Positions 124-2,486 of a stretch of DNA of 2,486 nt are shown one piece after another. Numbering within the stretch: position 1 is the stretch's first letter; each line of letters starts with the position of its first letter. Source of the stretch: Dictyostelium discoideum (Eukaryota); the NCBI GenBank assembly GCA_000004695.1, contig CH709176.1, forward strand, positions 1 through 2,486, given 5' to 3'. The notes under the pieces are model-generated. The model was not told the DNA's origin and searched no databases. It was given only the letters and a program-made list of their open reading frames with translations. The translations under genes were made by a program, and so were the position numbers.

Positions 124-147
124 ACACAGCGAAGAAAAAACCACCTT
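124..147 (+). repeat. Direct repeat R, copy 1 (ACACAGCGAAGAAAAAACCACCTT)
   Basis: 24/24 identity with 2435-2458. Relatively GC-containing for this window, so chance recurrence is very unlikely. The 3' end (CCACCTTTAAA) is itself a member of the NNCCTTTAAAAT motif family. Confidence 0.85.
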
Positions 148-167
148 TAAATTCGCTTTAAATTAAA

Positions 168-185
168 TTTAAATTTGCTTTAAAG
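168..185 (+). repeat. TTTAAATTTGCTTTAAAG motif, copy 1 (+ orientation)
   Basis: 18/18 identical to 835-852. The 13-mer core AAATTTGCTTTAA also occurs reverse-complemented at 726-738 and 2457-2469. Confidence 0.8.
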
Positions 186-199
186 TCCTGAATTAAAGC

Positions 200-271
200 A
201 ATTTTAAAGGTAATTTTAAAGGTAATTTTTAAGGTTACTTTAAAATTACCTTTAAAATTACCTTTAAAATT
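200..271. repeat. 72-bp near-perfect palindrome made of 12-bp tandem units (ATTTTAAAGGTA x2-3 on the left arm, TACCTTTAAAAT x3-4 on the right arm)
   Basis: Arms 200-224 and 247-271 are exact reverse complements (25 bp). The 22-bp spacer 225-246 is itself symmetric except for 3 central pairs. The right arm continues with a further 11-mer variant to about 285. Both arms are flanked by GTCCTGA (185-191 and 309-315) in direct orientation. Confidence 0.9.
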
Positions 272-293
272 ACCTTTAAATTACCTTTTTAAT

Positions 294-337
294 CGCTTTA
301 AAAGCGAGGTCCTGAGTTAGAAGCCGTTAATTAACGG
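294..337. promoter_or_regulatory. Cluster of two short GC-anchored palindromes: CGCTTTAAAAGCG (294-306, near-palindrome) and CCGTTAATTAACGG (324-337, perfect 14-bp palindrome)
   Basis: Seen directly. CCGTTAA|TTAACGG is a perfect dyad. This is a rare GC-containing symmetric site in an AT desert, immediately next to the large palindrome. Its function is unknown. Confidence 0.5.
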
Positions 338-378
338 ATAACCCTTTTTAAATTTTTTTTTTTAATCCCCCTCAAAAA

Positions 379-447
379 TTACCAAAAGGGATTCGATCCC
401 CCGACCCTCTATCAAAGGGTAGTCTCATCAACCATTACACCATTTGA
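379..447 (-). tRNA. tRNA-like remnant or fragment, possibly derived from a tRNA-Ile(GAU). It carries an anticodon-arm-like and a T-arm-like stem-loop, but I could not build a complete cloverleaf
   Basis: Minus strand reads ...gagact ACCCT ttgatag AGGGT c GGGGG atcgaat CCC(tt) ttggtaa... This gives a 5-bp stem with a 7-nt loop that has T at loop position 2 and A at loop position 6, so anticodon GAT. It is followed by a G/C stem closing the loop ATCGAAT, one mismatch from the TTCGAAT T-loop consensus. This is the only GC island in the 5' kb. Against: the variable region would be only ~1 nt, no D-arm or acceptor pairing can be found, and GAU is an organellar or bacterial-type Ile anticodon. Confidence 0.25.
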
Positions 448-550
448 TTGCTTTGATGAAAAATTTAAAAATGATAGAATATTTTATCCCCATTTTTTTG
501 TTCTAAAATTAGATCTTTTTTATTAAAAACCTTAAATTTATGTTTAAAGG

Positions 551-615
551 AAATTTAAATTCACTTTAAATCTACTTTAAATCTACTTTAAATCTACTTT
601 AAATCCTATTTAAAA
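551..615 (+). repeat. 11-bp tandem array, about 5 copies of TC(T/A)ACTTTAAA, ending in the variant TCCTATTTAAAA
   Basis: Seen directly: tcactttaaa tctactttaaa tctactttaaa tctactttaaa tcctatttaaaa. The period is 11 bp. Confidence 0.9.
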
Positions 616-621
616 TTAATT

Positions 622-662
622 TAAAATAAATTTTAAAGGTATTTTTAAATATCTTAAAAATT
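622..662 (+). repeat. ~105-bp-spaced direct repeat, copy 1 (AAATTTTAAAGG(T/A)ATTTTTAAATATCTTAAAAATTA)
   Basis: 628-662 matches 733-767 with one mismatch (t640 vs a745). Copy 2 lacks one 12-mer unit further downstream. Confidence 0.75.
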
Positions 663-722
663 ATCTTAAAAATTACCTTTAAAATCACCTTTAAAATCAC
701 CTTTAAAATTGCTTAAAAATTT
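651..722 (+). repeat. 12-bp tandem array, 6 units: ATCTTAAAAATT x2, ACCTTTAAAATC x2, ACCTTTAAAATT, GCTTAAAAATTT
   Basis: Seen directly. The ACCTTTAAAAT units are the same 12-mer family as the right arm of the palindrome at 247-285. Confidence 0.9.
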
Positions 723-725
723 ATT

Positions 726-738
726 TTAAAGCAAATTT
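726..738 (-). repeat. AAATTTGCTTTAA core motif, reverse orientation
   Basis: TTAAAGCAAATTT is the exact reverse complement of the 13-mer core at 171-183 and 838-850. Confidence 0.7.
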
Positions 739-780
739 TAAAGGAATTTTTAAATATCTTAAAAATTACCTTAAAAATGA
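727..780 (+). repeat. ~105-bp-spaced direct repeat, copy 2
   Basis: See copy 1. Copy 2 continues ATTACCTTAAAAATGA, a one-unit-shorter version of 661-686. Confidence 0.75.
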
Positions 781-834
781 ATTTTTTAAACGCGGCTTTA
801 AATTCAATTTAAATCCAATTTAAATCAACTTTTC

Positions 835-852
835 TTTAAATTTGCTTTAAAG
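835..852 (+). repeat. TTTAAATTTGCTTTAAAG motif, copy 2 (+ orientation)
   Basis: Exact 18-mer match to 168-185. Confidence 0.8.
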
Positions 853-991
853 GTGCATTTTTCTTTGCTGTGTAATTTTTATTTAGTATATTGTTGATTA
901 ATTTCTCTGCCACTTGGTTGGAACGAAAAATTCGAAATGGATTGGATTGGAACAAATTGAAACAAATTGAAACAAGTTTAATTTAATGTTT

Positions 992-1053
992 AAAAAAAAA
1001 AAAAAAAAAAAATTTTTTTTTTTTCTTTTTTTCTTTTTTTTTTTTTTTTTTTT
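992..1053. repeat. Homopolymer junction: A21 (992-1012) abutting a ~41-nt T tract (1013-1053, C at 1025 and 1033)
   Basis: Seen directly. A(n)T(n) is self-complementary. Read on the minus strand, the T tract is an oligo(A) run of ~41 nt with two G interruptions, so this is two poly(A)-like tracts tail to tail. Confidence 0.9.
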
Positions 1054-1110
1054 CCATTGGGACCTATCATTGGATAATTAAATTAAATATAATTAAATCA
1101 GCAAATTTTA

Positions 1111-1128
1111 AAAAAGATCGAGTTATCC
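1111..1128 (+). repeat. Left arm of an 18-bp perfect inverted repeat (AAAAAGATCGAGTTATCC)
   Basis: Exact reverse complement of 1531-1548 (GGATAACTCGATCTTTTT). The arms are about 400 bp apart. Confidence 0.85.
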
Positions 1129-1530
1129 GGAATAAATTCAGTTTTTTCCAAAAAAGTTTTTTTTTGAAAAATTTTTCACTTTTCATATGTTTTTTTTTTT
1201 TTTTAATAAAACACATTATTTAAAACAAAAATTTTAAATAATATTAAACAATATTTGTTAACAACTATCGTAGAATTAAATTTGGTTGTATTTATTGAGA
1301 AATAAAGAAAAATATAAAAAAAATGAACTTCGAAAAAAAAGGGACTTCAAAAAAAAAAAACTACATATGAATAATCAATCCTTTATTTGAGCCCCGGTAT
1401 TTTTGATTTTTTGTCAATCATACTATTTATTTTATTATTTATTTTAATTGTGAATAAATAAAAAAATTAAAAAAAAAAAAAAATAATATGGCCAATAAGA
1501 ATTTTTTCGCGAAAAGATTGATCTTTTCTG

Positions 1531-2434: not shown

Positions 2435-2458
2435 ACACAGCGAAGAAAAAACCACCTT
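2435..2458 (+). repeat. Direct repeat R, copy 2 (truncated by the window edge shortly after)
   Basis: Identical 24-mer to 124-147. The upstream flanks of the two copies differ (T-rich at copy 1, GC-richer complex sequence at copy 2), so the repeat boundary lies at or near ACACAGCG. Confidence 0.85.
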
Positions 2459-2472
2459 AAAGCAAATTTAAA
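2457..2472 (-). repeat. TTTAAATTTGCTTTAA motif, reverse orientation, adjacent to R copy 2
   Basis: TTAAAGCAAATTTAAA is the reverse complement of TTTAAATTTGCTTTAA. The longer stretch 2460-2484 (GCAAATTTAAATTTAATTTAAAGCG) is the exact reverse complement of 154-178. Confidence 0.8.
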
Positions 2473-2486
2473 TTTAATTTAAAGCG

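What the first reader, a model, noticed from the sequence alone, without database searches (positions are those of the whole stretch)
551..852. Second block of phased TTTAAA-core arrays (11-bp and 12-bp periods) with a superimposed ~105-bp direct repeat
There are five 11-mers (TCTACTTTAAA) and six 12-mers (ATCTTAAAAATT / ACCTTTAAAATC), and 628-662 is duplicated at 733-767. All units are 'GC-containing 3-5 nt + TTTAAA/TTAAAA'. This fits one DNA-binding specificity reading a short GC prefix with an AT core, iterated at near-helical spacing. The A/T-tract phasing also predicts intrinsic DNA curvature. Together with 148-345 this is a bipartite iterated-motif region separated by a GC island at 379-447.
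Basis: partly seen in the sequence, partly recalled or inferred. Interest (0 to 1): 0.6.

Follow-up and report, generated by a model that had tools for sequence, protein, structure and literature searches.

The report
Repeat-built arm of a small transposon
The phased TTTAAA arrays are real, but they most likely form the right arm of a roughly 750-bp non-coding mobile element bounded by terminal inverted repeats, which is a fairly ordinary kind of object, and not a curved-DNA or origin/centromere signal.

Summary
TTTAAA occurs 21 times in 551-852, against 4.7±1.7 in shuffles. The array runs 543-851 as 27 units with a mean period of 11.65 bp. A matching array of 14 units (11.62 bp) lies at 146-303. 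The 105-bp higher-order repeat is real: 628-662 matches 733-767 at 34 of 35 positions.

Both lie inside one 750-bp segment (124-873). It is capped by inverted copies of a non-repetitive terminus, ACACAGCGAAGAAAAAACCACC-TTTAAA (25/28 complementary). A third copy of that terminus, followed at once by 11-bp units, starts at 2435. DNA outside all three termini is unrelated. There is no ORF.

The best reading is a non-autonomous TIR DNA transposon (MITE- or foldback-like). Its arms are subterminal repeat arrays. The TIR's inner end, ACCTTTAAA, recurs 11 times, only inside the element. The core is conserved while the spacers are near random, which suggests multiple binding sites for a transposase. 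This function is inferred, not shown.

Predicted curvature equals that of shuffled sequence. No relatives were found in any searchable collection. Superfamily, target-site duplication and source organism are unresolved; composition suggests an AT-rich eukaryote, possibly a dictyostelid.

The parts
124..151 (+). Left terminal inverted repeat: ACACAGCGAAGAAAAAACCACC plus the first TTTAAA
   Evidence: It is inverted against 846-873 at 25/28 positions (I10, 29). The 21-mer pattern is found 3 times in the window against 0 in 200 shuffles. The termini pair in the ssDNA fold.
146..303 (.). Left-arm array: 14 TTTAAA-core units, mean period 11.62 bp
   Evidence: TTTAAA occurs 11 times against 3.1±1.4 in shuffles.
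195..288 (.). Near-perfect 94-bp palindrome inside the left arm: three AATTTTAAAGGT units facing ACCTTTAAAATT units
   Evidence: I12 (47-nt arms, 87% complementary, 0 nt between them). (exact 30-nt inverted repeat 200-229/242-271). The left arm folds at z = -9.4.
304..542 (.). Non-repetitive central region of the element, with no other copy in the window
   Evidence: only low-complexity matches elsewhere. It contains the palindrome CCGTTAATTAACGG at 324-337.
379..449 (-). Weak tRNA-like sequence (B-box-like GGATCGAATCC, followed by TTTTT on the minus strand)
   Evidence: ARAGORN calls it only at the relaxed -ps80 threshold. The Rfam tRNA model scores 14.8 bits against a gathering score of 29, E = 1.5. 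Inconclusive.
543..851 (.). Right-arm array (the finding): 27 TTTAAA-core units, mean period 11.65 bp, in blocks of alternating orientation
   Evidence: TTTAAA occurs 22 times against 4.8±1.8 in shuffles. The arm folds at z = -8.4.
586..825 (+). 105-bp higher-order repeat (about 9 units) inside the right arm. It accounts for most of the length difference between the arms.
   Evidence: TRF gives period 105, 2.3 copies, score 265. Segments 628-662 and 733-767 are 34/35 identical. In the arm-to-arm alignment the right arm carries extra blocks of 27 and 61 nt.
846..873 (-). Right terminal inverted repeat (reverse complement ACACAGCAAAGAAAAATGCACCTTTAAA)
2435..2486 (+). Terminus of a second copy, in the same orientation as the left end, followed at once by three 11-bp units. 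It is cut by the window end.
   Evidence: An exact 24-nt match 124-147/2435-2458. Flanks upstream are unrelated. Segment 2457-2486 is the exact reverse complement of 154-183.

Best explanation
Region 551-852 is most of the right arm of a roughly 750-bp non-coding DNA element (124-873). The element is bounded by 28-bp terminal inverted repeats and is most likely a non-autonomous cut-and-paste transposon with MITE-like or foldback-like architecture.

Each arm has three layers. A unique 22-bp cap (ACACAGCGAAGAAAAAACCACC) comes first. The first copy of the site ACCTTTAAA follows. Then comes a phased array (mean 11.6 bp) of units that keep the palindromic TTTAAA core and vary in the 4-6 nt spacer.

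Inferred mechanism: the units are subterminal binding sites for the transposase of an autonomous partner element. That protein would also recognise the inner half of the TIR. Many closely packed sites would load an oligomer on each end and help pair the ends.

The arrays themselves change by replication slippage and by hairpin- or palindrome-mediated template switching. Evidence for slippage is the local runs of identical units and the 105-bp higher-order duplication. Evidence for template switching is the blocks of opposite orientation and the in-place 30-bp inversion between copies.

Shown: the TIRs, the sharp boundaries, the second terminus, the phasing, the core/spacer contrast, the lack of coding capacity and the strong self-complementarity. 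Inferred: mobility, transposase binding and the source organism.
For: - Inverted termini 124-151/846-873 match at 25/28 positions.
- The terminus pattern occurs 3 times against 0 in shuffles.
- The third terminus at 2435 has an exact 24-nt match and then 11-bp units.
- The 100 nt outside the three termini are unrelated: alignment scores 12, 21 and 15 against shuffle means of 12.1, 16.8 and 15.7. The boundary at ACACAG is therefore sharp.
- No ORF of 50 aa or more exists anywhere in the window, and none of 40 aa or more lies within 124-873.
- The arms align in inverted orientation at 85% over 196 columns, score 169 against 51±7 for shuffles.
- The whole element folds as ssDNA at -132.5 kcal/mol, z = -15.5, with the termini paired.
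- ACCTTTAAA, the inner end of the TIR, occurs 11 times (7 forward, 4 reverse), all inside the element. Its order from each end inward is the same: terminal site, then 11-mers, then three inverted 12-mers, then direct ones.
- Core identity is 0.94 and spacer identity 0.33, against 0.28 for random.
- The mean period is equal in the two arms, 11.62 and 11.65 bp.
- Precedent: transposases bind TIRs plus subterminal repeats that resemble the inner TIR half in Lemi1/Emigrant and Sleeping Beauty, and subterminal repeats are also reported for the CACTA and hAT families (PMC1636448).
Against: - Only one complete copy and one 52-bp terminus are available.
- No relatives were found in the metagenome, viral, GTDB, plasmid or phage collections. 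Copy number, polymorphic insertions and an autonomous partner are therefore all untested.
- The target-site duplication is not established. TA/TA fits only if the terminus is CACAG, and the third terminus is preceded by CA.
- The arm-to-arm alignment scores almost as well in direct orientation (164.6 against 169.1). This is because the arms are internally palindromic, so only the 22-bp caps prove the inversion.
- A 6-bp all-A/T core is short for a specific binding site.
- An all-A/T core is partly protected by GC-to-AT mutation bias, so its conservation is weaker evidence of selection than it looks.
Confidence: 0.6

Rival explanations
1. The element is a transposon as described, but the arrays are functionally neutral. 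They would be a micro- or minisatellite that grew inside the arms by slippage, unequal exchange and palindrome-driven rearrangement. The TTTAAA core would persist only because an all-A/T palindrome resists GC-to-AT mutation bias and serves as microhomology for those rearrangements.
For: - Local runs of identical units exist: TCTAC x3, TTACC x3-4, TCACC x2.
- There is a 105-bp higher-order duplication.
- A 30-bp TTTAAA-bounded segment is inverted in place between copies.
- The two arms differ in length.
- Tandem repeats carried inside foldback and Helentron-type elements are well known. Papers on this were listed (PMC7492417, PMC4067079) but not read.
Against: - Spacers are near random (identity 0.33 against 0.28), while positions -3 and +3 of the core are kept in 35/41 and 39/41 units.
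- A/T positions within the spacers are not similarly kept.
- Both arms keep the same mean period.
- The best-conserved unit equals the inner end of the TIR.
Confidence: 0.25
2. This is the first reader's view: a chromosomal cis-element (replication origin, or centromere- or telomere-associated repeat). It would be made of iterated binding sites for a host DNA-binding protein, with intrinsic curvature from phased A/T tracts.
For: - The motif is iterated and phased with a conserved core.
- The sequence is very AT-rich and easily melted.
Against: - Predicted curvature of 551-852 does not differ from shuffles.
- TnAn motifs and an 11.6-bp period both argue against planar curvature.
- The arrays are capped by a unique inverted terminus that recurs 2.3 kb away with unrelated flanks. 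That pattern is typical of dispersed elements and not of a single chromosomal landmark.
- The arms are not more AT-rich than much of the surrounding window.
Confidence: 0.07
3. The segment is a composite and not a single element. Two separate ends of a larger element, or two solo arms, would lie in opposite orientation on either side of a decayed tRNA gene, either by nested or targeted insertion or by an inverted duplication.
For: - A tRNA-like sequence with a B-box-like motif and a T5 run lies in the centre.
- A third terminus is close by, which shows clustering of such ends.
- tRNA genes are known insertion targets in Dictyostelium for retrotransposons (PMC5633606; established knowledge).
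Against: - The tRNA-likeness is below every curated threshold (14.8 bits against 29). At the same relaxed ARAGORN setting, a false call appears inside the array.
- The two caps face outward, exactly as for one TIR element.
- The arms carry the same order of unit types from the end inward.
Confidence: 0.08

Closest known systems
MITEs with transposase-bound subterminal repeats (Arabidopsis Emigrant mobilised by the pogo-like Lemi1; also Sleeping Beauty inner repeats)
   Same: It is a small non-coding element with TIRs of roughly 20-30 bp. Its subterminal repeats match the inner half of the TIR and occur in both orientations. In those systems the transposase binds the TIR and then binds the repeats cooperatively (PMC1636448). 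A TA duplication is compatible with the complete copy.
   Different: Here there are 14 and 27 tightly phased units per arm, instead of two or three. The conserved part is only a 6-9-bp palindromic core. The TA duplication is unproven, because the third terminus is preceded by CA. No partner transposase is known.
Foldback (FB) elements of Drosophila and FB-like elements such as Tetris or nematode Tm1 (Tm1: PMC3169594, listed, not read)
   Same: The long inverted arms are built from short tandem subrepeats and capped by a unique terminal sequence. The two arms differ in length through subrepeat copy number. The centre is short and non-coding, and the hairpin potential is very strong. The description of FB elements is from my own knowledge.
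   Different: The 9-bp target duplication typical of FB is absent. The subrepeats here vary in spacer sequence and in orientation, whereas FB subrepeats are homogeneous direct units. The arms are about 200-330 bp, not kilobases.
CACTA / En-Spm elements
   Same: Subterminal regions carry many copies of a roughly 12-bp motif in direct and inverted orientation. In En/Spm these bind TnpA. The terminus CACAGCGAAGAAAA loosely resembles CACTACAAGAAAA (recalled from memory; a lead, not a test).
   Different: The terminus is CACAG, not CACTA/CACTG. No 3-bp duplication is present (GTA against TAA).
Dictyostelium discoideum DNA transposons (Tdd-4/5, DDT-A/B/S, thug-S/T)
   Same: The window's composition looks dictyostelid: about 80% AT, poly(A)/poly(T) runs of 20-40 nt and (TTA)n tracts. 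That genome has small DNA-transposon families, which are said to cluster with their own kind. Family names and genome fractions are in PMC5633606; the clustering is from my memory of Glöckner et al. 2001.
   Different: Tdd-4/5 are reported with 5-bp duplications, and their Ginger superfamily with Gypsy-LTR-like termini (the TGTNR pattern is stated for Ginger1; PMC2836005). Neither feature is met here. The published thug-S miRNA sequences are absent from the window.

Membership tests
Non-autonomous TIR (class II) element / MITE | Terminal inverted repeats at both ends | tested here: met
   124-151 and 846-873 match at 25/28 positions. The termini pair in the fold.
Non-autonomous TIR (class II) element / MITE | Small size and no coding capacity | tested here: met
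   The element is 750 bp. No ORF of 40 aa or more lies within 124-873.
Non-autonomous TIR (class II) element / MITE | Target-site duplication flanking the element | tested here: inconclusive
   Only TA/TA fits, and only if the terminus is CACAG. No duplication of 3-10 bp fits, and the third terminus is preceded by CA.
Non-autonomous TIR (class II) element / MITE | Multiple dispersed copies with unrelated flanks | tested here: inconclusive
   Two loci in the window have unrelated flanks. Genome-wide copy number cannot be tested, and there were no hits in the available collections.
Foldback elements | Long inverted arms made of tandem subrepeats, unequal between arms | tested here: met
Foldback elements | 9-bp target-site duplication | tested here: not met
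   The flanks are ...CCGACAAGT and AATTTTTAT....
CACTA / En-Spm | CACTA/CACTG termini and a 3-bp duplication | tested here: not met
   The terminus is (A)CACAG, and the 3-bp flanks are GTA against TAA.
CACTA / En-Spm | Subterminal repeat motifs in direct and inverted orientation | tested here: met
   Orientation blocks are shown. ACCTTTAAA occurs 7 times forward and 4 times reverse.
Ginger2/Tdd (Tdd-4, Tdd-5) | 5-bp duplication and Gypsy-LTR-like termini (TGTNR pattern, stated for Ginger1) (PMC2836005) | tested here: not met
   The ends read 5'-ACACAG on both strands. The 5-bp flanks differ.
Dictyostelium thug-S | Contains the multicopy thug-S miRNA hairpin (miRNA_can_D3 sequences, PMC4894637) | tested here: not met
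   No match with up to 3 mismatches. This tests only that part of thug-S.
Intrinsically curved DNA (phased A-tracts) | Predicted curvature above that of composition-matched shuffles, with phasing near 10.5 bp | tested here: not met
   Bend of 14.2 degrees against 13.0±1.7, with 24% of shuffles at least as curved. The period is 11.6 bp and the motifs are TnAn-type. The wedge parameters were recalled from memory and checked only on the A-tract and Hagerman controls.
tRNA gene (centre of the element) | Passes the tRNA covariance model or the ARAGORN default | tested here: not met
   ARAGORN at default settings finds 0 genes. Rfam RF00005 scores 14.8 bits against a gathering score of 29.
Replication-origin iterons / centromeric or telomeric repeats | Location at such a landmark, with an adjacent initiator gene or chromosome-end context | not testable with these tools
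   The source genome is not available. The window contains no gene.

The most novel reading that the evidence does not exclude
This may be a previously undescribed foldback-type DNA transposon family of an AT-rich amoeba-like genome. Its arms would be operator arrays: a palindromic TTTAAA site repeated every 11.6 bp with free spacers. Nine units (about 105 bp, the higher-order repeat) equal ten helical turns. Such arrays would be read by a transposase or host protein that polymerises as a helical filament along the arm. The element may also carry a tRNA-derived Pol III module in its centre.
Probability: 0.12. Interest if true: 0.55.

Novelty: new member of a known kind. Interest (0 to 1): 0.3.

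Why it matters
If the reading is right, the finding moves from 'possible origin/centromere/curved-DNA signal' to 'arm of a small mobile element'. This matters for annotation. Such arrays should be masked as transposon sequence, and the hairpins they form can give spurious miRNA-like hits (sub-threshold mir-548 and mir-3938 matches).

The one less ordinary aspect is the regularity. Forty-one units keep a 6-bp palindrome and an 11.6-bp phase while the spacers are nearly random. If a partner transposase exists, this would be a clean natural substrate for studying how many weak subterminal sites cooperate in transposon-end recognition.

Tried and rejected
- **Relatives elsewhere.** A metagenome scan with the degenerate terminus gave 35 loci. 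All are chance matches inside unrelated sequence of 36-63% GC, mostly one conserved gene, with no TTTAAA arrays. Exact terminus and 12-mer-array scans of the GTDB genomes and of the viral contigs gave nothing. blastn against plasmids and phages gave nothing except a poly(A) match.
- **Locating the source.** Exact look-ups of five small window ORFs found no gene on record.
- **Literature.** Sequence strings from the element appear in no paper. The key Dictyostelium repeat papers (Glöckner 2001, Eichinger 2005, Avesson 2012) are not held. The papers that mention thug or DDT give no structures.
- **thug-S.** Its published miRNA sequences are absent from the window.
- **Curvature.** Rejected.
- **tRNA gene in the 'GC island'.** It scores below thresholds.
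- **Known RNA families.** Only sub-threshold hairpin-type hits were found.
- **Superfamily by target duplication.** Lengths of 3, 5 and 9 bp all fail for the single complete copy.
- **Tandem duplication of a 2.3-kb unit.** Rejected. Similarity between 124... and 2435... starts exactly at the terminus, and the central region has no second copy.

Full report
**The window.** It is 2486 bp and about 80% A+T. It has poly(A)/poly(T) runs of 20-40 nt and a (TTA)13 tract. There is no ORF of 50 aa or more. ARAGORN at default settings finds no tRNA. No Rfam hit reaches a gathering score. This looks like intergenic DNA of an AT-rich eukaryote. The homopolymer style suggests a dictyostelid, but that is inference from composition only. 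None of the searchable collections contains the window or any relative.

**Checking the observation.**
- TTTAAA occurs 21 times in 551-852, against 4.67±1.66 (maximum 9) in dinucleotide-preserving shuffles. It occurs 35 times in 124-873 against 8.1±2.5. In the remaining 1.56 kb it occurs 11 times, against 15.5 expected.
- Spacings between successive T|A junctions in the arrays are nearly all 11-13 bp.
- The array really runs 543-851 as 27 units with a mean period of 11.65 bp. The upstream block 146-303 has 14 units with a mean period of 11.62 bp.
- TRF finds periods of 11, 12 and 105. Segments 628-662 and 733-767 are 34/35 identical.
- Minor corrections: exact TCTACTTTAAA occurs three times, not five, and four of 39 spacers lack G/C.

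**The units are not copies of one repeat.** When the units are aligned on the junction, the core is kept: T at -3 in 35/41 units and A at +3 in 39/41. The 5-nt spacers have 31 distinct sequences among 41 units. Their pairwise identity is 0.33, against 0.28 expected from composition. What is conserved is the hexamer and its phase.

- The repeat search shows that 120-175 is inverted against 822-877 (I10).
- The non-repetitive sequence ACACAGCGAAGAAAAAACCACC followed by TTTAAA (124-151) faces its reverse complement at 846-873, matching at 25/28 positions.
- The same cap occurs a third time at 2435, in the orientation of the left end, with an exact 24-nt match. It is followed at once by three 11-bp TTTAAA units before the window ends.
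- The 100 nt outside the three caps are unrelated; their alignment scores sit at the shuffle mean.
- The central region 304-542 has no second copy in the window.
- So both 'blocks' of the bipartite region are the arms of one 750-bp segment with sharp inverted ends, and a second copy begins 2.3 kb downstream.

**Anatomy of the arms.**
- From each cap inward the order is the same. First comes a terminal ACCTTTAAA site. Then come several 11-bp units. Then come three 12-mers in inverted orientation (TTTTAAAGGTRA), followed by 12-mers in direct orientation.
- ACCTTTAAA is the inner end of the TIR. It occurs 11 times, all inside the element.
- The arms align in inverted orientation at 85% identity over 196 columns, score 169 against 51±7 for shuffles. 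The right arm carries extra blocks (27 + 61 nt) that correspond to the 105-bp higher-order duplication.
- The direct-orientation alignment scores nearly as well (164.6). This is because each arm is itself palindromic, for example 195-241/242-288, which is 87% complementary with no spacer.
- As single strands, the element and each arm fold far better than shuffles: z = -15.5, -8.4 and -9.4. The sub-threshold Rfam hits to miRNA hairpin families at 192-279 reflect this.
- Between copies, the 30-nt segment 154-183 is present as its exact reverse complement at 2457-2486, behind an identically oriented cap. TTTAAA-bounded blocks therefore invert in place.

**Curvature.**
- I computed helix paths with a dinucleotide wedge model. 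I recalled its parameters (Bolshoy/Trifonov set) from memory and validated them only on controls. The model makes phased A6 tracts and (A4T4)n strongly curved and (T4A4)n straight, as in Hagerman's experiments.
- For 551-852 the mean 30-bp bend is 14.2 degrees, against 13.0±1.7 for shuffles, and 24% of shuffles are at least as curved. The left arm is marginal at 3.5%.
- For the whole element 124-873 the mean bend does exceed every shuffle (15.3 against 12.5±0.9). The highest 100-bp bin in the window-wide profile lies in the centre (421-520), outside the arrays.
- With TnAn motifs and an 11.6-bp period, any per-unit bend rotates by about 39 degrees per unit and cancels over about nine units.

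**Interpretation.**
- The best-supported reading is a non-autonomous TIR DNA transposon with MITE-like size and foldback-like arms. The arrays would be subterminal repeats.
- The closest documented behaviour is Lemi1/Emigrant. There the transposase binds the TIR and then binds cooperatively to subterminal motifs that repeat the inner half of the TIR. Sleeping Beauty behaves in a similar way, and the same paper notes subterminal repeats in CACTA and hAT elements (PMC1636448).
- I infer that the TTTAAA units, best represented by ACCTTTAAA, are multiple binding sites for a partner transposase. I also infer that the arrays expand, contract and invert by slippage and hairpin-mediated template switching. 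Mobility and binding are not shown.
- The neutral alternative is a satellite growing inside transposon arms, with an all-A/T palindromic core preserved by mutation bias and microhomology. It remains credible.

**Membership.**
- For the complete copy, only a TA duplication fits, and only with the terminus set at CACAG. The third terminus is preceded by CA.
- Duplications of 3, 5 and 9 bp do not fit. The CACTA, Ginger2/Tdd (PMC2836005) and FB criteria are therefore not met, although the arm architecture works like FB and CACTA subterminal regions.
- The published thug-S miRNA sequences are absent.

**The 'GC island'.** On the minus strand, 379-449 is weakly tRNA-like. It has a B-box-like GGATCGAATCC and a downstream T5 run. 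The Rfam tRNA model scores 14.8 bits against a gathering score of 29. ARAGORN calls it only at -ps80, where it also makes a false call inside the array. It may be a decayed tRNA-derived module, but this is inconclusive.

**Verdict.** The binding-site idea is plausible once recast as transposase-binding subterminal repeats. The curvature and chromosomal-landmark ideas are not supported. The object is a new member of a known kind, or possibly an already catalogued repeat, and is of modest interest. The notable feature is how strictly the core and the 11.6-bp phase are kept while the spacers vary freely.

Noticed in passing
window 1105-1128 and 1531-1554: An exact 18-bp inverted repeat AAAAAGATCGAGTTATCC (1111-1128/1531-1548) extends to about 24 bp as ATTTTRAAAAAGATCGAGTTATCC. 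It may mark a second, unrelated small TIR element of about 450 bp. No clear target duplication was seen.
   Followed up: partly
window 154-183 and 2457-2486: A 30-nt block of three TTTAAA units is the exact reverse complement in the second copy, although the adjacent 22-bp cap has the same orientation. This is an in-place inversion between palindromic TTTAAA sites.
   Followed up: partly
window 379-449 (minus strand): A weak tRNA-like sequence with a B-box-like GGATCGAATCC, followed by TTTTT. It is below the ARAGORN default and the Rfam gathering thresholds. It may be a decayed tRNA-derived module in the centre of the element.
   Followed up: partly
window 185-199 and 309-324; 324-337: GTCCTGAATTAAAGC and GTCCTGAGTTAGAAGC bracket the palindromic 12-mer block of the left arm, which may mark a duplication or nested insertion. 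They are directly followed by a perfect 14-bp palindrome CCGTTAATTAACGG. No counterpart exists in the right arm.
   Followed up: no
window 992-1053, 1690-1713, 1780-1818, 2218-2293: An A21 run abuts a 41-nt T-rich run. There is also an A24 run, a (TTA)13 tract and a 76-nt A-rich tract. This composition is typical of dictyostelid-like intergenic DNA and is the only clue to the source organism.
   Followed up: no
window 940-975 and 1316-1357: Small tandem repeats lie outside the element: GGATTGGATTGG followed by (ATTGAAACAA)x3, and a 17-bp unit AAAAAAAAGGAACTTCA x2.5.
   Followed up: no
window 1504-1515: A perfect 12-bp palindrome TTTTCGCGAAAA lies inside the possible second TIR element.
   Followed up: no
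window 192-279: Sub-threshold Rfam matches to miRNA hairpin families (mir-3938 at 42 bits against 94; mir-548 at 37 bits against 90) on both strands. They reflect the long AT-rich palindrome of the left arm. If transcribed, it would be a Dicer-type substrate.
   Followed up: partly
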